Shown: one piece after another, positions 12,486 through 18,318 of the stretch | How the letters are laid out: each line of letters starts with the position of its first letter | How positions within the stretch are numbered: position 1 is the stretch's first letter | Source of the DNA: Planctomycetota bacterium | GTDB lineage: Bacteria; Planctomycetota; UBA1135; UBA2386 | Length of the DNA stretch: 64,000 nt | NCBI GenBank assembly: GCA_965223545.1 | Contig: OZ245006.1 | Location: forward strand, 7,712,001 to 7,776,000 | Direction: 5' to 3' | Made by a program: the position numbers and the translations under genes | The notes under the pieces: model-generated | Database searches by the model: none | What the model was told of the DNA's origin: nothing | The model's input: the letters and a program-made list of their open reading frames with translations, nothing else

Positions 12486-13664
12486 TCAGTGATCGGCCTT
12501 GCGAAAGCCGTAGAAGGGAATCTCGACCACGACCTTCGGTGACGCCGGCTTGCCGACCCGGACGACACCGCGGAAGCTGTCCCCGTCGAGGGTGCCGAGG
12601 TAGCGCAGGGTCAGGCGGGCCTGATGGGGCGCGCCGACCAACGGGTCCAGCCTGGCCTCGAAGTGCTCGGCCAGCGACACGCCTTTGCGGTCGATGATCC
12701 CGCGCACTTCGAAGCCGGGCTCGCGGTCGGCGTGGTCGGTGAGCAGCAGGAACTTGTCGTCGCCAGTGGGTTCGTCGAACGGGATCCTGCCGAAGCTCAG
12801 ATCGGGCCACGGCTCGACCTGGATCTCGGGAATCACCTGTCCGGAGACGGGGATGCGCAAGGTGTAGGCGGGCTCCAGCGTCGAGCTGACGGTGATCGTC
12901 GCGGTGAGCGGCCCCAGCGCGCCCGTGCCGGCGCGGGGATCGATGTGCAGGTCGAGCTTCTGCCGGCCGTTCTCGACGCCGTGCAGGGTGGCCACGACGC
13001 GGCCGTTGTCGACCAGGGCGGGGCCGAAGACCACTCCCGGCGTGTCGGCGATCAGCTCGACCGTCCGGGTCAGCGTCTTGGCCAGCGGCAGCGTGCCGAA
13101 GTCGACGTGCGCCGCGGGTTGGACCGAGACCGGAGAGTCGATCGCGAAGTGAAAGCGCACCGGCAGTGGCACGTGTGGGTGGTCTTCGTCGCCCTCCGCG
13201 CGTTGCAAGATCGCGGCGCCGTCGAGCGTGCGGCGCTCCTGGTCGACGGCCTCCTTGAGGTTGGTGTCGATGGTCAGACGGAGCAACAGCCGGTCGCCCT
13301 GCTGCAGGGTCTTGTAGGCGTGCGGCAGGTGGTCGACCTCGCGCTCGGAGCCGAGGCGGTCGATGATGACGAAGCGATGGCCCGCGCACGAGCAGCCGGA
13401 GCGAAAGCCGATCGGCGCGTAGCCGACGGCGTCGTGCGCGGCGGTGATGTCGAAGTCATGCGTCACCACGTCCCCGTGCCGCAGGCTGCCGAAGTCATGC
13501 TCCAGGACGATGTCGCCGGGATCCAGCTGCCCAGCGATGGGCGCTTCCGCCGTTCCGGTCGCCGGATCGGCGGTGGACGCGTCCGATTTGCTGCAGCCGA
13601 CTCCGGCAAGAGTGGCTGCCAGCAACGGAAGACCGGTGCGAAACATCGCGCGGGCAAGGATCAT
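12486..13664 (-). CDS. lipoprotein, DUF1573/Ig-like repeats
   Basis: lipobox LAGVGC; HDFG..HDF; SGCSC; repeated VDFG/LSFG beta-sandwich motifs. Confidence 0.65.
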   Translation of the reverse strand: MILARAMFRTGLPLLAATLAGVGCSKSDASTADPATGTAEAPIAGQLDPGDIVLEHDFGSLRHGDVVTHDFDITAAHDAVGYAPIGFRSGCSCAGHRFVIIDRLGSEREVDHLPHAYKTLQQGDRLLLRLTIDTNLKEAVDQERRTLDGAAILQRAEGDEDHPHVPLPVRFHFAIDSPVSVQPAAHVDFGTLPLAKTLTRTVELIADTPGVVFGPALVDNGRVVATLHGVENGRQKLDLHIDPRAGTGALGPLTATITVSSTLEPAYTLRIPVSGQVIPEIQVEPWPDLSFGRIPFDEPTGDDKFLLLTDHADREPGFEVRGIIDRKGVSLAEHFEARLDPLVGAPHQARLTLRYLGTLDGDSFRGVVRVGKPASPKVVVEIPFYGFRKADH

Positions 13665-13786
13665 GGGGGGGCGTGCCGGGGCGGTCGGTGGACGTCGGGG
13701 GCCAAGCATGCCGCAGGATAGTCGTCTCACCCCGGCCTGCAACGCGCGGGTCGCCCGACAACTCCACCGCGGTCCCGATTCGGCTT

Positions 13787-13850
13787 AAATGACCGGGGGC
13801 CGCGGCCGCGGCCCCCGTATCGTCCATTCGCAAGCAAGGAGGTGAGTCAT
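13787..13850 (-). ncRNA. candidate sigma54-dependent sRNA with anti-SD motif
   Basis: starts at the predicted sigma54 +1; contains UCACCUCCUU; ends in a 24-bp perfect palindrome followed by GUCAUUU. Confidence 0.45.
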
Positions 13851-13859
13851 GCTCCTCGT

Positions 13860-13875
13860 AGCAATGACCTTGCCA
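13860..13875 (-). promoter_or_regulatory. sigma54 (-24/-12) promoter
   Basis: minus strand TGGCAAG-GTCA-TTGCT vs consensus TGGCACG-N4-TTGCW. Confidence 0.7.
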
Positions 13876-14052
13876 GCGCCGACAAAAAATCGCGGCCGCC
13901 GGCACTCTCCGCGCTGCCAAGGGCATCTCCCGAGCCCTCCCCCGCAACCGCAGCCGCCGCCCCGGCAGCCAAACCATGGCACGCCTGCCACGGTCGGTGG
14001 CGCCGGCACCATGGTCACCCGCAAGATGATGGTACGGAGCCTGACCTGAAAC

Positions 14053-15435
14053 TCACCCAGCCTCGACGATCGGTATGAGCTTGTACCCGAGGGATTTAGC
14101 GTTCTGTCGGAGTCCGACGATGCGTCGCTGGGTGAAGCGCTCCTCGTAGGCCTTGGCGCCTTCGTCTACGTAGTCCTGGCCGAACTTCAGCATGCGGTAG
14201 ATGAGCAGGGCCAGTTTGCGGGCGATGGCAAAGATGGCGACGTTGCCGTCCTTCGCGCGGGCGATCTTGCGGAAGTGTGCGCCGAGAGCTGTCTGAGTAC
14301 GTTGGAGGGACAGGGCGGCCATCCGGAGGACCGTGGCGATCCTGCTGACCGCGATGTTGTTGCGGTGCTTCTTGATGCGCTTTCCACCCGAGACGGCTTG
14401 ACGTGGGCACAGGCGTAGCCAGGAGACGAAGTGCTTCTCGGTCGGGAAAGCATCGAGGTCGTAGCCGACCTCGGTGAGCACGATCATGGCCGTGCTCGGG
14501 CTGATACCGTCGATTCGCGTGAGATCACACCCGACGAGCCGGCAGAGGGCATCGCGAAGCTCCCGGCCGCCCTTCGTTCGGATGCTCCTCTCCTTGCGGG
14601 GGTCTGGATGCTCGGGGACGTCGGCCGTCTTGGCTTCCTCCGGTTGCAGGTCCTCGATCATCGCCATCAATCGCTTCTCGACCGACTCGATCTCGTGGTC
14701 GGTGTGCTCGAGCATCCGCAAGCCCGAAGCGAGAGTGAAGATGTGCTCCTCGATCCAGGTCCCTTGCAAGTGATCCGCGAGCTCCTTCTCGGAGATCTTG
14801 CAGCGCGGATCACGCAGTCTGGCGAGCGCTCGAGGGTCGCGTTCACCAGCGAGAATCGCGCGGATGATCGCGAGGCCGGTCTTGCCGGTGATGTCCGTTA
14901 CCGCGCGATGGATCGCCACGTTCATCTGATCCAGTGACCGCTGCATCAACTGCGTGTGGCGCGTGCGCTGCGCGATCAAAGACGCGGCATGGCGTTGCAG
15001 GGTCCGCAACGCACAGATGTCCTTCGGAGGCCGGAACGAAGCGCGAATGAGGCCATAGGTGTGTAGCTTCTGCAGCCAACTGCAATCGCTGGCATCGGAC
15101 TTGGAGCGGCCCGGCACGTTCTTCACCTCGCGGGCATTCGCGAGGATGACCTCGAAGCCTCTCGACTCGAGTAGCTCGTAGACGGGAATCCAGTAGACAT
15201 AGGTGCTCTCCATCGCGACGGATCGCACTCCGAGCTCCTCCAGCCAGTCCGCGAGCGCCTCTAGTTGGGGCGTCGTCGTTCCGAATCGCTTGATCGGACG
15301 ACTGCCGTCGGGTGCTGCTGCGCACACCCAGTGCTCGCGGCTGCCGATGTCGATTCCGGCGGCGTTGGGCTTCACGACTGGTAATACTTCCGCTGCGGGC
15401 TTCTTGCCCTTCCTCGTTCTGCCCTTCCGAGCCAT
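14053..15435 (-). CDS. IS110 family transposase/recombinase
   Basis: RuvC-like DEDD (GIDIG, MESTYVYW, KSDASDC), C-terminal IDGIS...AVSGGK with catalytic-type Ser, AIARKLA..IYRML; SD AAGGAGG. Confidence 0.95.
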   Translation of the reverse strand: MARKGRTRKGKKPAAEVLPVVKPNAAGIDIGSREHWVCAAAPDGSRPIKRFGTTTPQLEALADWLEELGVRSVAMESTYVYWIPVYELLESRGFEVILANAREVKNVPGRSKSDASDCSWLQKLHTYGLIRASFRPPKDICALRTLQRHAASLIAQRTRHTQLMQRSLDQMNVAIHRAVTDITGKTGLAIIRAILAGERDPRALARLRDPRCKISEKELADHLQGTWIEEHIFTLASGLRMLEHTDHEIESVEKRLMAMIEDLQPEEAKTADVPEHPDPRKERSIRTKGGRELRDALCRLVGCDLTRIDGISPSTAMIVLTEVGYDLDAFPTEKHFVSWLRLCPRQAVSGGKRIKKHRNNIAVSRIATVLRMAALSLQRTQTALGAHFRKIARAKDGNVAIFAIARKLALLIYRMLKFGQDYVDEGAKAYEERFTQRRIVGLRQNAKSLGYKLIPIVEAG

Positions 15436-15451
15436 ACTTCATCCTCCTTGT

Positions 15452-15617
15452 TGTGGTGGGCCCGGCCCGAGGCGGCGATCAAACGAATCTGACCTGCGGG
15501 AGTGGGCACGGCGACGTGCCCCTCACCAGTGAAGGATGGCCAACTCGGACCCAGACTGGCTCTGGGGCAAACGTGCTCCAGTGGCTATTGGGGGCGTAGC
15601 TGCCGGGCCCCTCACAC
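15452..15617. ncRNA. putative bridge/seek RNA in the IS110 non-coding end
   Basis: outer stem GGGCCCGGC/GCCGGGCCC, internal hairpins, and CTGACCTGC (15489-15497) identical to the reconstructed target junction. Confidence 0.65.
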
Positions 15618-15700
15618 GTTCCCCGCCCCCTTCCTCAGCGGCTAGTTTCCTGCCCTGAAGGGCCGACAAAATCTGTCGGGGCAGGACTGGCTCCGTACCG

Positions 15701-17059
15701 TCAGATGCCGTGGCGCCGCAGTTTGCGATAGAGCGTGGTCACGTCGATCTGCAGCGCGCGCGCGGCCGCCGTCTTGTTGCCGCCGGCCTCGGCCAGCGCC
15801 TCGCGCAGCAGCCGGCCTTCGAGCTGCTCGGTCGCGGCGCGCACCCGGTCGGCGAGCGAGCCCGAGGTCGCGGAGGTGACGCCGTCGCTGGTGCCCGGGC
15901 CGTGCAGACCGAGGTCGGCGACGTCGATCTCGCGCCCGCCGCAGACCAGCACCGCCCGTCGCACCGCATTGCGCAGCTCGCGCAGGTTGCCGGGCCAGGG
16001 ATGCGCCTCCAGCGCTGCCATCGCGGCCGCGGTCAGGCCGGTGACTTGGCAGCCGAGCTCGGCGGTGGCCTCGCCCAAGAATTGCTCGACGAAGTGGTGC
16101 AGGTCCGTGGGGCGGGTGCGCAGCGGGGGGATCTCGACGCGGAACTCGGCCACGCGGTGGTAGAGGTCGATGCGAAACGCGCCGGCGCCGATGGCGTCCT
16201 CGAGCTGGGCGTTGGTGGCGCACAGCAGCCGCGCCTCGAACGGCACCGGCTCGCCGCCGCCGACCGGCGCCACGACGCGTTCTTGCAGAGTGCGCAGCAG
16301 CTTGGCCTGCAGCGCCAACGGCAGGTTGCCCAACTCGTCGAGGAACAGCGTGCCGCCGTGCGCGGTGCGAAACAGACCCGGGCTGGCGCTGTCGGCGCCG
16401 GTGAATGCGCCCTTCTTGTGGCCGAACAGCTGGCTCTCCATCAGCGGCTCGGGCAGCGCGCCACAGTCGACGGCCACGAACGGGCCGCTGGCGGCCGGCG
16501 AGCGCCGGTGGATCTCGCGGGCGACCACCTCCTTGCCGGTGCCGGACTCGCCCTGGATCAACACCGACAGCGTGGGTTGTGGCGCGACCAGATCGATCGC
16601 GCGCTGCAGCTCGAGGGCCGCCGGGCTGCTGCCGAAACCGACCTTCTGGCGCGCCAGCCGCGTCTTCAGCGTGGCGACTTCGCGCCGCAGCGCACCGCGC
16701 TCGGCGGCCCGCCGCACCGTGGCCAGCAGCCGGTCCGCATCGAACGGCTTGGACAGGTAGTCGTAGGCGCCGTCGCGCATGGCGCCGACCGCGGTGTCGA
16801 CGTCCTCGACCGCCGAAAGCAGGATCACCGGCATGTCCGGCTTGCTCTCGGCCAGCGCGCGCAACATCGCCACCCCGTCCATCTCCGGCATGCGGATGTC
16901 GGACAGCACGACGTCGGGCGGCGTGTCGCGCACCGCGTCGAGCGCGGCGGCTCCGTGCTCGGCTTCGCGCACGGCGAAACCGTGGTCGCGCAGCAGGCGC
17001 CCGAGCACCCAGCGCATGTCGGGCTCGTCGTCGACGATCAGGACGGTAGATTCGCGCAT
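15701..17059 (-). CDS. sigma54-dependent response regulator
   Basis: receiver domain, GESGTGKE, GAFTGA, FLDELG, WPGNLRELRN, Fis HTH. Confidence 0.93.
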   Translation of the reverse strand: MRESTVLIVDDEPDMRWVLGRLLRDHGFAVREAEHGAAALDAVRDTPPDVVLSDIRMPEMDGVAMLRALAESKPDMPVILLSAVEDVDTAVGAMRDGAYDYLSKPFDADRLLATVRRAAERGALRREVATLKTRLARQKVGFGSSPAALELQRAIDLVAPQPTLSVLIQGESGTGKEVVAREIHRRSPAASGPFVAVDCGALPEPLMESQLFGHKKGAFTGADSASPGLFRTAHGGTLFLDELGNLPLALQAKLLRTLQERVVAPVGGGEPVPFEARLLCATNAQLEDAIGAGAFRIDLYHRVAEFRVEIPPLRTRPTDLHHFVEQFLGEATAELGCQVTGLTAAAMAALEAHPWPGNLRELRNAVRRAVLVCGGREIDVADLGLHGPGTSDGVTSATSGSLADRVRAATEQLEGRLLREALAEAGGNKTAAARALQIDVTTLYRKLRRHGI

Positions 17060-18318
17060 GCCAAACTCCGGTGGCGGGGTGCGGGGGCGGGCTCGAGCTG
17101 CGCCGGCAGCAACAGCAGCGCGCGCGCCCCGCCGCAAGCGCGCGGAAACAGCCCGACGCGGCCGCCGAGTTCCTCGATCCCGCGCCGCGTCGACAGCAAT
17201 CCCAGCCCGGACCCCTCTCGCTTGGTGGTGAAGAACGGTTGGAACAGCTTCTGCCGGGTGTTTTCGTCGATGCCGGTGCCGCGGTCCTCGATGCTCACCG
17301 CGGCCAGCGCCGCGCCGCCGAGGCGGAACGGCCGGCAACGCAACGCGACCGCGCCGCCCTCGGCCGATGCCTGCAGCGCATTCATCAGCAGATTGACCAG
17401 CGCCTGCAGTAGACGCTTGCGGTCGGTCTCGACCACGAGCGGTGGGTTGCCGCTGGCGTCCACCGCCACGCCGCGCCGGCGGGCCTCGGGCGCGACCAGC
17501 GCGGCGAGCTCGCTGAGCGTCGCGGCGAGATCGAGCCGCCCGGCCTCGCCACTGCGCGGCTGACCGACCTCGAGCAGCCCGGCGATCGTGCGCTCGGCAC
17601 GGTCGACGTTGCGCTGCATCACCGACAAGTGGTCGGCGATGTCACCATCACGGCCGTGGCTCGTGTGCAGCGCTTGCGCCGCGGCCTTGATGATCGCCAG
17701 CGGGTTGCGCAGATCGTGTGCCAAGCCGGCGGACAGCTCGGCGATCGCGTGCACCCTCTGGGTTTGCTCGAGGCGCTGCTCGATGCGCGCCCGGGCGTGC
17801 TCGGAGCGCTGCAAGCGGCCCTTGGTGCGGTCGTAGCGCTCGCGCAGGAGTTGCTGGCCGGCGAGCAGTTCGGGGATCCACAGCACGATGCCGTAGGAGA
17901 CCATGCTCAATCCCAGTAGGAACACCGCGCCGCGTTCCAGCGTCGCCACCCAGACCGATTCGACCCATGGCTGCTCGGACGCCAACCAGCGGGTGGCCGC
18001 CGCGAGCACGTAGCCCAGGGTCAACACCGCGAACCCACCCTGCACCAGGAGGAAGGGCAGCACCCGGATCTCCGGTTGCCGGCGTCCCAACCAGTGGAAG
18101 AAGCCCCAGAGCACCGCGAAGTACAGCGGCCGCAACAGCGGATCCGTGGCGGGGTCGCCGGCGAACCAGGCGACGAGGATGGTCATCACCGTGATCGCAG
18201 CGCACGCCGTGACGGTGCCGGGGACCGCGGGGCGTGGTGGGGCGGCCGGCTGGGTGAGGCTCCCCGCCACGTCCTGCGCATGACCGTCGGCCGCGGAGAG
18301 AGCGGTGGTGCGAGACAC
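17038..18318 (-). CDS. membrane sensor histidine kinase
   Basis: several TM helices, HDLRNPL, NLLMNALQA, DRGTG, FQPFFTTK, GSGLGL; start uncertain. Confidence 0.88.
   Translation of the reverse strand: MSRTTALSAADGHAQDVAGSLTQPAAPPRPAVPGTVTACAAITVMTILVAWFAGDPATDPLLRPLYFAVLWGFFHWLGRRQPEIRVLPFLLVQGGFAVLTLGYVLAAATRWLASEQPWVESVWVATLERGAVFLLGLSMVSYGIVLWIPELLAGQQLLRERYDRTKGRLQRSEHARARIEQRLEQTQRVHAIAELSAGLAHDLRNPLAIIKAAAQALHTSHGRDGDIADHLSVMQRNVDRAERTIAGLLEVGQPRSGEAGRLDLAATLSELAALVAPEARRRGVAVDASGNPPLVVETDRKRLLQALVNLLMNALQASAEGGAVALRCRPFRLGGAALAAVSIEDRGTGIDENTRQKLFQPFFTTKREGSGLGLLSTRRGIEELGGRVGLFPRACGGARALLLLPAQLEPAPAPRHRSLACANLPS

What the first reader, a model, noticed from the sequence alone, without database searches (positions are those of the whole stretch)
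14029..15701. IS110 element whose non-coding end carries a copy of its own target site: a bridge-RNA-type RNA-guided recombinase
Seen: an intact DEDD + Ser recombinase. Junctions read ..GCCTGAC-CT-GAAAC (14046-47) and GTTTC-CT-GCCC.. (15650-51); CCTG is shared, so the exact boundary is ambiguous by about 1 nt. There are only ~5 nt of non-coding sequence after the stop but ~215 nt upstream. That upstream region folds (outer stem 15458-66/15602-10; hairpin GGGCAC/GTGCCC; two stems ending in CCA) and contains CTGACCTGC (15489-97), identical to the reconstructed empty site across the core. A second 9-mer, GACTGGCTC (15554-62), equals the distal arm of the target palindrome (15685-93). Known: IS110 elements such as IS621 (CT core) use a bridge RNA with target- and donor-binding loops. 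Inference: this is a planctomycete bridge system. In IS621 topology the left-target guide equals left flank + core, which here fits the strand antisense to the transposase, so the RNA may be antisense. I could not identify a convincing donor guide.
Basis: partly seen in the sequence, partly recalled or inferred. Interest (0 to 1): 0.8.

Follow-up and report, generated by a model that had tools for sequence, protein, structure and literature searches.

The report
RNA-guided IS110 element targeting REP palindromes

Summary
The recombinase is real: an intact 460-aa IS110-family DEDD + Ser enzyme. The class call, a bridge-RNA-type element, is supported. The details are not.

- **Ends.** 23 near-identical copies and 85 empty sites show the element spans window 14041-15686 (1,646 bp). 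It sits in the centre of a REP-like palindrome, GGAGCC-A-GGCTCC.
- **Core.** The core is AG in transposase sense, CT on the + strand, at 14041-42 and 15687-88.
- **RNA.** A roughly 165-nt structured RNA (15616-15452) lies on the transposase strand, not antisense. It has strong compensatory covariation in 40 orthologous loci.
- **The two 9-mers.** Both are guides but were mis-assigned. 15562-15554 reads left flank + core + the first two element bases. 15496-15489 reads the element's own right end + core, not an empty site. Both covary with the ends of orthologous elements.
- **Difference from IS621.** Both guides lie on the 3' side of their loops in IS621's RTG/RDG format (5 + AG + 2). They match the strand and side that IS621 reads with its 5'-side guides.
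- **Other features.** There is a 6-9-bp sub-terminal inverted repeat, as in IS1111-type elements.

I read it as a variant of a known kind. This scan has already noted similar REP-targeting IS110 elements on other DNA. No RNA or activity data exist.

The parts
14041..15686 (-). The insertion sequence, 1,646 bp counting one copy of the core. It comprises the left end (LE, 251 nt non-coding), the transposase gene and the right end (RE, 12 nt after the stop).
   Evidence: 23 copies at 98.8-100% identity. Flanks diverge outside a shared CTG/CAG. Empty sites exist.
14053..15435 (-). IS110-family DEDD + Ser recombinase, 460 aa. D29, E76, D114, D117 and S349 align with the IS621 catalytic residues.
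   Evidence: The frame is open in 23 of 23 copies.
14041..14042 (.). Core dinucleotide at the right junction: AG in transposase sense, CT on the + strand.
   Evidence: AG is invariant in both guides of the orthologs.
15687..15688 (.). Core dinucleotide at the left junction (the target-derived copy).
14027..14040 (.). Right half of the interrupted REP-like palindrome (sense: GCTCCGTACCATCA).
   Evidence: Inverted repeat I1. 22 of 23 copies have GCTCC here.
15689..15703 (.). Left half of the interrupted REP-like palindrome (sense: TGACGGTACGGAGCC). Its TGA is the stop codon of the neighbouring regulator gene.
15452..15616 (-). Bridge-type RNA domain, closed by the outer stem P1 (15611-15602 with 15466-15457, extended to 15616/15452). 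It holds two pseudo-symmetric modules and ends 3 nt before the ribosome-binding site (15449-15443).
   Evidence: Fold z = -3.96. Covariation. Model R1 hits 40 of 75 related loci and exactly the 23 copies in this genome.
15554..15562 (-). Target guide on the 3' side of module T: GAGCC + AG + TC. It equals the last 5 bases of the left flank, the core and the first 2 bases of the element (handshake-like).
15487..15496 (-). Donor guide on the 3' side of module D: (C)AGGTC + AG + AT. It equals the last bases of the right end plus the core.
15565..15579 (-). Hairpin of module T. P3 (15595-15592 with 15552-15549) closes the module.
15498..15527 (-). P2 (15548-15544 with 15471-15467) closes the module.
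14048..14053 (-). Right arm of the sub-terminal inverted repeat (AGTTTC). It overlaps the last base of the stop codon.
15644..15649 (-). Left arm of the sub-terminal inverted repeat (GAAACT), 38-43 nt inside the left end.
15648..15686 (-). Left-end terminal hairpin region. TCCTGCCC (15686-15679) pairs with GGGCAGGA (15655-15648). The inner hairpin is CCGACA/TGTCGG (15679-15674 with 15668-15663).
   Evidence: An inner hairpin at this place is seen by eye in most of the 11 close orthologs.
15530..15535 (-). 5' side of module D (CCTTCA). It is identical in sense to left-end positions 26-31 (15661-15656). This direct repeat covaries in the close orthologs; its role is unexplained.

Best explanation
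This is an active-looking IS110-family insertion sequence at window 14041-15686 on the - strand.

**The RNA.** Its left end encodes a roughly 165-nt RNA on the transposase strand, with two pseudo-symmetric stem / internal-loop / hairpin modules inside a common outer stem.
- The 3' strand of the first module (GAGCC-AG-UC) is identical to left flank + core + the first two element bases. It would therefore pair with the complementary strand of the target.
- The 3' strand of the second module ((C)AGGUC-AG) is identical to the last bases of the right end + core. It would pair with the complementary strand of the donor, that is, the joined ends of the excised circle.

**The reaction.** The DEDD + Ser recombinase, loaded with this RNA, would exchange strands at the AG/CT core. 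The result is insertion, in one orientation, into the centre of a REP-like palindrome (GGAGCC-A-GGCTCC).

**Shown.** The anatomy; 23 copies in 22 palindrome sites; 85 empty sites; the RNA structure by covariation; covariation of both guides with element ends across about 29 different elements.

**Inferred.** That the RNA is made and bound; catalysis; the circle intermediate.

**Geometry.** The guides have the layout of IS621's 3'-side guides (5 nt, AG, 2 handshake positions). They read the side and strand that IS621 reads with its 5'-side guides. Relative to IS621, the RNA-transposase cassette is therefore probably inverted with respect to the polarity of recombination. This last step is inference.
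For: **Protein.** IS110 RNA-guided transposase family. The catalytic residues align with IS621.

**Copies.** 23 of 23 copies have open frames.

**Boundaries and target.**
- 23 of 23 left flanks end in GAGCC and 22 of 23 right flanks begin with GCTCC.
- 85 empty GGAGCC[AT]GGCTCC sites exist; about 0.74 are expected per 13-mer and strand.

**RNA.**
- Model R1 finds the domain in 40 of 75 related loci. Every hit is on the transposase strand. All but two lie just upstream of the gene; L049 and L053 lie beside a neighbouring or cut copy.
- On the 11-sequence seed alignment, 94.1% of cells pair against 83.3% shuffled, and 12 of 31 pairs show compensatory changes.
- On the 40-hit alignment, 95.3% pair against 74.1% shuffled, 27 of 31 pairs are compensatory, and 0 of 500 shuffles reach the observed values. 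That alignment is fitted to the model.

**Guides.**
- An element's own target-guide 7-mer lies in the expected left-boundary window in 12 of 23 elements, against 4 of 642 foreign pairings.
- An element's own donor-guide 7-mer lies just after the stop codon in 12 of 17, against 3 of 401.
- Closely related elements show natural reprogramming. Window GAGCC and L025 GTGCC differ in both guide and flank, as do CATGG and TATGG in L041/L043 against L045/L040.
- Copies of one element in one genome (L034, L035, L081) diverge exactly 5 nt upstream of AG.
- Guide position 8 equals the first element base in 27 of 30 distinct cases, and position 9 in 16 of 30. Handshake guides in IS621 behave this way (PMC11208158, passages; design file in supplement 7 of PMC11208160).
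Against: - No transcript, RNA-protein or circle-junction data exist. No RNA run holding this DNA is listed, and contigs laid on the region showed no joints.
- No Rfam family matched.
- No sigma-70-like promoter was found in the linear element.
- No convincing second guide was found for the other half of target or donor next to the core. The 5' strand of module T compared with the right flank gave a mean longest match of 3.8 nt (own, n = 18) against 3.2 nt (foreign, n = 298). Only 2 of 18 reached 6 nt.
- A 7-nt match cannot explain the specificity. GAGCCAG occurs 1,969 times in the genome and only 94 of these are GAGCCAGGCTC-type centres. Yet 22 of 23 copies sit in the palindrome, so a determinant is still missing.
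- Handshake-like positions of the donor guide match the right flank in only 6 and 5 of 17 cases, near chance.
Confidence: 0.8

Rival explanations
1. The element ends at 14046-47 and 15650-51. CTGACCTGC is a target guide copying the empty site. The RNA may be antisense to the transposase.
For: The motifs exist. GAAACT and AGTTTC at the supposed ends are a real inverted repeat.
Against: - All 23 copies share the 37 nt and 5 nt beyond these points.
- Empty sites join GGAGCC-A-GGCTCC with none of that sequence.
- The 8-mer equals the element's own right end and covaries with right ends in orthologs.
- G-U pairs and the strand of all 40 model hits favour the sense strand.
Confidence: 0.02
2. Same element and guides, but the polarity is that of IS621. 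On this reading the left-target and left-donor guides have simply moved to the 3' side of their hairpins (a permuted loop), with AG as the true top-strand core. The cassette would not be inverted.
For: - The sequences flanking the target guide (TGCC.., then guide, then TGGGT) resemble those flanking IS621's left target guide in the design template.
- The guides are in the same sense as left flank + core, as IS621's left guides are.
Against: - The invariant AG sits at positions 6-7 of the 9-mer and is followed by two positions that track the other DNA partner. That is the layout of IS621's right guides plus handshake, not of its left guides, which are 7 + 2.
- A CT core on the paired strand is the IS621 core.
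Confidence: 0.25
3. The structured left end is mainly a leader that controls transposase translation or stability. End and target recognition would be by protein, with the short matches being protein-binding repeats.
For: - The outer stem ends 3 nt before the ribosome-binding site.
- The left end also carries a covarying direct repeat and an inverted repeat. These could be protein sites.
Against: - Guide positions change together with flank and right-end sequences, while the protein family stays the same.
- The family model is named RNA-guided transposase.
- RNA guidance is experimentally shown for relatives (PMC11208160 and PMC11187229, passages).
Confidence: 0.05

Closest known systems
IS621 of Escherichia coli and its bridge RNA (IS110 group; Durrant 2024 PMC11208160, Hiraizumi 2024 PMC11208158, both read as passages; design file in supplement 7)
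   Same: - DEDD + Ser recombinase.
- Long upstream non-coding end encoding a sense RNA with a target module followed by a donor module.
- Guides that include the core.
- 3'-side guide layout of 5 nt + AG + 2 handshake positions.
- CT core on the strand that pairs with those guides.
- Inserts into REP-type repeats.
   Different: - The recombinase is 460 aa, against a 328-residue chain for IS621, and similarity is weak (E = 7.5e-11).
- Both modules are nested inside one outer stem.
- The 3'-side guides read the left junction and the right end in the sense orientation. IS621 reads these with its 5'-side guides.
- No programmable 5'-side guide next to the core was found.
- The sub-terminal inverted repeat is 6-9 bp, with its left arm about 34-42 nt inside, against 2-3 bp reported for the IS110 group.
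IS1111-type elements and their seekRNAs (ISEc11, ISPa11, ISKpn4; Siddiquee 2024 PMC11187229, passages)
   Same: - Sub-terminal inverted repeats.
- A short (7-bp) extension beyond one repeat arm.
- The bottom-strand match lies 3' in the RNA. That paper reports the order top-strand match, then bottom-strand match, for IS1111-type, and the reverse for the IS110-type ISEc21.
   Different: - The non-coding region is upstream of the transposase, not downstream.
- The repeat is shorter: 6-9 bp against 11-13 bp usual.
- The left extension is about 33-41 nt, not 3 or 7 bp.
- A top-strand match was not established here.
- The same paper notes rare IS1111 relatives with an upstream non-coding region (ISMtsp17). 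I did not compare them.
ISPpu10 of Pseudomonas putida (bioRxiv 10.64898/2026.03.19.712850, abstract only)
   Same: An IS110 element whose insertions all map to copies of one conserved intergenic repeat that forms a stem-loop. Its specificity needs more than RNA-DNA pairing.
   Different: The relationship was not tested. Here the core lies at the centre of the palindrome. A role for DNA structure is only inferred from the gap between 7-mer frequency and site use.

Membership tests
IS110 family in the broad sense (RNA-guided DEDD transposases) | RuvC-like DEDD domain plus Tnp domain with a catalytic serine | tested here: met
   PF01548 and PF02371. NF033542 at 248 bits, cut-off 140. D29, E76, D114, D117 and S349 align with the IS621 residues (read by hand).
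IS110 family in the broad sense (RNA-guided DEDD transposases) | Site-specific insertion without a target duplication beyond a shared core | tested here: met
   22 of 23 copies lie in one palindrome family. Only CAG/CTG is shared at the two junctions.
IS110 group, IS621-type bridge RNA | Long non-coding left end upstream of the gene, short right end | tested here: met
   251 nt against 12 nt.
IS110 group, IS621-type bridge RNA | Structured RNA with two internal loops, target first and donor second, conserved by covariation | tested here: met
   The target-matching guide lies 5' of the donor-matching guide.
IS110 group, IS621-type bridge RNA | [quoted passage not shown] | tested here: not met
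   The guides that match left flank + core and right end + core in sense lie on the 3' sides. No 5'-side guide next to the core was found.
IS110 group, IS621-type bridge RNA | Guide-target and guide-donor covariation across orthologs | tested here: met
   12 of 23 against 4 of 642, and 12 of 17 against 3 of 401.
IS110 group, IS621-type bridge RNA | RNA is expressed and bound by the recombinase; a promoter is rebuilt at the circle junction | not testable with these tools
   No RNA run is listed. The linear element gave no sigma-70-like promoter site. The junction itself was not scanned.
IS110 group, IS621-type bridge RNA | Sub-terminal inverted repeat absent or only 2-3 bp | tested here: not met
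   A complementary stretch of 5-9 nt lies at left-end positions 34-42 in 15 of 16 distinct elements, with compensatory changes.
IS1111 group | Sub-terminal inverted repeats of 7-17 bp (usually 11-13) | tested here: inconclusive
   6 bp in this element and 5-9 bp in relatives. This is at or below the lower bound given.
IS1111 group | Guide RNA encoded downstream of the transposase | tested here: not met
   The RNA domain is upstream in 38 of 40 hits. The other two lie beside a neighbouring or cut copy.
IS1111 group | Top-strand match precedes bottom-strand match in the RNA | tested here: inconclusive
   The bottom-strand match is on the 3' side. A top-strand match on the 5' side was not established.

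The most novel reading that the evidence does not exclude
This element stands for a widespread but undescribed IS110 lineage. I found it in MAGs labelled Myxococcota, Acidobacteriota, Bacteroidota, Planctomycetota and others, and on alphaproteobacterial plasmids at about 45% protein identity.

On this reading the bridge RNA is wired the other way round from IS621:
- Only the 3' strand of each loop is programmable.
- The RNA-transposase cassette is inverted relative to the polarity of strand exchange.
- Donor recognition is three-part: the right end + core, a covarying left-end internal site 22-32 nt in, and a 6-9-bp sub-terminal inverted repeat.

That would make it a link between the IS110-type and IS1111-type architectures. 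Its short 5 + 2-nt target guide would need a DNA-structure gate, the palindrome, for specificity.
Probability: 0.35. Interest if true: 0.55.

Novelty: new variant of a known kind. Interest (0 to 1): 0.4.

Why it matters
Bridge and seek RNAs are being developed as programmable recombinases, and nearly all mechanistic knowledge comes from IS621, ISCro4 and a few IS1111 elements.

- **A new case for the guide rules.** This lineage keeps the IS621 guide layout but reads the opposite junction. It seems to programme only one strand of each loop and carries IS1111-like sub-terminal repeats. That tests which rules of guide geometry are universal.
- **A specificity gap.** A 7-nt guide match is paired with strict use of one palindrome: 22 of 23 copies, although only 94 of 1,969 7-mer sites are of that type. 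This points to a second specificity layer, comparable to the target stem-loop reported for ISPpu10.
- **For genome annotation.** The lesson is practical. The sub-terminal repeats of such elements are easily mistaken for their ends.

Tried and rejected
- **Rfam.** A scan of 13500-16200 at E up to 10 gave 4 weak hits, all far below their gathering scores and none related to a bridge RNA.
- **RNA runs.** No RNA holder is listed. The one RNA run offered is of another organism.
- **Contigs laid on the region.** Contigs of 4 DNA runs laid on 13800-15900 showed no joints, so neither a circle junction nor an empty allele was seen. They only showed the element at about 23-30 times the depth of its flanks.
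- **Promoter and terminator scan.** No promoter-like site was found. One terminator-like site lies inside the gene on the other strand, which is no more than chance.
- **Second target guide on the 5' strand of module T.** Inconclusive. Own mean was 3.8 nt against 3.2 nt foreign. The matches of 6 nt or more, in L040 (8 nt) and L054 (6 nt), sit in different registers.
- **Single-sequence folds.** Used only as a lead. For the whole 254-nt left end, z = -2.5 on both strands, so folding does not tell the strand.
- **An alternative helix.** RNAalifold's GCCA/TGGU helix competes with the GG/CC closure of the module D hairpin. I kept the latter because it mirrors module T, but neither varies, so it is not settled.
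- **Core dinucleotide TC.** Positional homology with IS621's left guide would suggest TC. I rejected this because the empty sites lack it.
- **IS621 itself.** I could not fetch it for a side-by-side run of my pipeline. The comparison rests on the paper's passages and its design file.
- **The second IS110-family element of this genome.** I started on it as a control but did not finish.
- **Earlier findings.** Look-ups by place and by sequence gave nothing.
- **Print search.** Two full-text searches listed no paper on this lineage. I read only listings and the papers named, so it may be covered in figures or supplements I did not see, for example Extended Data Fig. 10 and Supplementary Data 1 of PMC11208160.


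Full report
**What is there**

The - strand ORF 14053-15435 encodes a 460-aa protein with the two Pfam domains of IS110 transposases. PF01548 covers residues 26-171 and PF02371 covers 305-383. The protein scores 248 bits on NCBIfam NF033542, 'IS110 family RNA-guided transposase', whose cut-off is 140. The only solved relatives are IS621 (8wt6, E = 7.5e-11) and ISCro4. In the printed alignment, D29, E76, D114, D117 and S349 stand opposite IS621's catalytic D, E, D, D and S; I read these positions by hand.

**The ends**

The genome holding the window is 8.1 Mb with 70% G+C. It carries 23 full-length copies at 98.8-100% identity, and all 23 have an open frame. Six copies are identical to the window copy. 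The rest differ at a handful of positions and one 1-nt indel, none of them in the guides.

In transposase orientation, all 23 left flanks end in (C/G)GAGCC and are followed by AG and then TCCTGCC. All 23 right ends read GTTTCAGGTC then AG, and 22 of 23 are followed by GCTCC.

Uninterrupted GGAGCC-A/T-GGCTCC palindromes occur 85 times in the genome, against about 0.74 expected per 13-mer and strand. Their arms are extended and slightly asymmetric: GAACGTACGGAGCC, A, GGCTCCSRTTCATCAC. The element is therefore 1,646 bp, at window 14041-15686. It sits in the centre of a REP-like palindrome, always in the orientation that gives CC-AG-GC.

The trinucleotide CAG (CTG on the + strand) is shared by both junctions. 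Orthologs fix AG as the invariant part.

**The RNA**

Seventy-five related loci were fetched from public genomes. The nearest is 78% identical in protein, and a group of about ten lies at 52-58%. Their upstream regions align with the window's 15618-15451.

A consensus structure emerges with these parts:
- An outer stem P1.
- A first module closed by P3.
- A second module closed by P2.
- One hairpin in each module.

On the 11-sequence seed, 94.1% of cells pair against 83.3% in shuffles, and 12 of 31 pairs show changes on both sides. No shuffle of 500 reached the observed values for four of the five measures; for the count of further pair types, 10 of 500 did.

A covariance model built from the seed finds the domain in 40 of the 75 loci, always on the transposase strand. 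In 38 of the 40 it lies directly upstream of the gene. In the window's genome it hits exactly the 23 copies.

On the 40-hit alignment (33 distinct rows), 95.3% of cells pair against 74.1% shuffled, and 27 of 31 pairs have compensatory changes. This alignment is fitted to the model, which favours the structure.

G-U pairs are frequent; one P3 pair is G-U in 18 of 33 rows. On the other strand these would be C-A, so the RNA is sense. The domain ends 3 nt before the ribosome-binding site.

**The guides**

In each module the strand 3' of the hairpin reads: 2 linker nucleotides, 5 variable nucleotides, an invariant AG, then 2 more nucleotides.

In the window these strands are GAGCC-AG-TC (15562-15554) and AGGTC-AG-AT (15495-15487), the latter preceded by a C that also matches.
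- The first is identical to the left junction: the last 5 flank bases, the core, and the first 2 element bases.
- The second is identical to the right end plus the core.

Across distinct elements, an element's own 7-mer (5 + AG) lies in the expected place far more often than guides taken from other elements:

| Guide | Own element | Foreign guides |
|---|---|---|
| First (target), at the left boundary | 12 of 23 | 4 of 642 |
| Second (donor), after the stop codon | 12 of 17 | 3 of 401 |

Allowing one mismatch places most of the rest.

Examples of joint change:
- Window GAGCC against L025 GTGCC, in both guide and flank.
- CATGG against TATGG among four acidobacterial copies.
- Right ends CTGGTTAG (L028) and CACACTAG (L036), each matched by its own second guide.

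Copies of one element in one genome (L034, L035, L081) have unrelated flanks up to exactly 5 nt before AG.

Position 8 of the first guide equals the first base of the element in 27 of 30 distinct cases, and position 9 in 16 of 30. The same positions of the second guide match the right flank in only 6 and 5 of 17.

**Comparison with IS621**

The published design file gives IS621's layout (supplement 7 of PMC11208160).
- The left target guide is target positions 1-9 in sense, on the 5' side of the loop.
- The right target guide is the reverse complement of core + right target, followed by two handshake positions, on the 3' side. It is written RRRRR-CC-HH and reads ..AG.. for a CT core.
- The donor loop is analogous.

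The text states that the left half (left target joined to right donor) lies at the left end, which encodes the RNA upstream of the recombinase (PMC13626964, passages; PMC11208160, passages).

The present guides have the layout of IS621's 3'-side guides, including handshake-like behaviour and a CT core on the strand they would pair with. They also lie on the 3' sides. However, they match the left junction and the right end in the sense of the RNA.

Either the RNA-transposase cassette is inverted relative to the polarity of recombination, which I favour, or the left guides have moved to the 3' side. Siddiquee et al. report that IS1111-type seekRNAs carry the top-strand match 5' of the bottom-strand match, and that the IS110-type ISEc21 has the reverse order (PMC11187229, passages). 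Here the bottom-strand match is 3', as in the IS1111 type, although the RNA is upstream of the gene as in the IS110 type.

**Further anatomy**

- *Sub-terminal inverted repeat.* In 15 of 16 distinct elements with both ends placed, a 5-9-nt complement of the stretch just inside the 5-nt donor-guide site of the right end lies at left-end positions 34-42. The changes are compensatory: GGTTTC/GAAACC, AGTTAC/GTAACT, TTGTCAT/ATGACAA, TTTGTTATT/AATAACAAA. In the window the arms are 14053-14048 and 15649-15644.
- *Hairpin.* Between the core and the left arm lies a conserved hairpin.
- *Direct repeat.* The 5' strand of the donor module is identical in sense to 6-9 nt at left-end positions 22-32 in 11 of 29 distinct elements, all of the closer clade. 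Examples are GATCAATCA, ATCGTTCA, ATGATGCAT and CCTATCA; in the window it is CCTTCA, at 15535-30 and 15661-56. Overall, 12 of 29 own pairs share 6 nt or more, against 119 of 812 foreign pairs. I cannot say whether this is a second donor guide or a protein site.

**What is missing**

- No guide for the right half of the target was established.
- The right flank is unconstrained between L034 and L035 but conserved (TGAC) among four acidobacterial insertions.
- A 5 + 2-nt match cannot give the observed specificity. GAGCCAG occurs 1,969 times on both strands, 46 of these inside the element copies themselves. Only 94 are palindrome-type centres. Something else must contribute, most simply the palindromic structure, or pairing of the same guide to both arms.
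- There is no expression or activity evidence.

**Verdict**

This is a bridge-RNA-type IS110 element, intact and evidently successful in its genome. Its lineage departs from the IS621 rules in guide side or polarity and in its sub-terminal repeats. I therefore file it as a variant of a known kind, not as an IS621-type or IS1111-type member.

The scan's earlier notes describe several other REP-targeting IS110 elements on other genomes. The general phenomenon is thus not new to this scan.

Noticed in passing
G000:C1:4826058-4829693 (outside the window): Two copies of the element form a tandem duplication of the unit [161-nt left flank + element]. The right end of the first copy (ending ..GGTC AG) is joined not to the palindrome but to CAGACACC, which in the upstream copy of the flank follows ..GCCGT AG. 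The joint is thus again at an AG, but the pseudo-site matches neither guide well. It may be an off-target or inter-sister recombination.
   Followed up: partly
G000:C1, e.g. 5762166-5764137; 11 copies: A second IS110-family element is about 1,972 bp, with a 515-aa open frame and about 350 nt of upstream non-coding sequence. It is inserted in a different repeat of about 127 nt, of which some 16 further copies exist. A third IS110-family element has 3 copies. Neither matches RNA model R1.
   Followed up: partly
window 15701-15703 and flanks of other copies: The REP-like palindrome starts with TGA and ends with TCA. Here the TGA is the stop codon of the neighbouring sigma-54-type response-regulator ORF (15701-17338, - strand). 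Many other copies also follow ..cTGAag or ..gTGAac directly, so the repeat seems to sit right at gene ends.
   Followed up: no
window 15530-15535 and 15656-15661; L027, L028, L030, L031, L036 and others: A direct repeat covaries between the 5' strand of the donor module of the RNA and a site 22-32 nt inside the left end. Known bridge-RNA rules do not explain it.
   Followed up: partly
L030:2560-2600 and L030:930-960: In this relative, the 7 bases at the right end (GGGCA AG) equal the target guide and the left flank. They do not equal the element's own donor guide (GGGTC AG). The element is thus flanked by a 7-bp direct repeat inside a palindromic site.
   Followed up: no
L028:440-470: The left flank of this copy (TGAAGTTACTGGCTAG) is nearly identical to the element's own right end (TGAAGTTACTGGTTAG). 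Target and donor left halves therefore differ by one base. This looks like insertion next to a right-end remnant or into an end-like site.
   Followed up: no
plasmids collection, hits H1-H12: Relatives of the recombinase at 44-47% identity sit on plasmids of cultured Paraburkholderia, Agrobacterium, Rhizobium, Nitratireductor and others. These offer tractable hosts for experiments on this lineage. Their non-coding ends were not examined.
   Followed up: no
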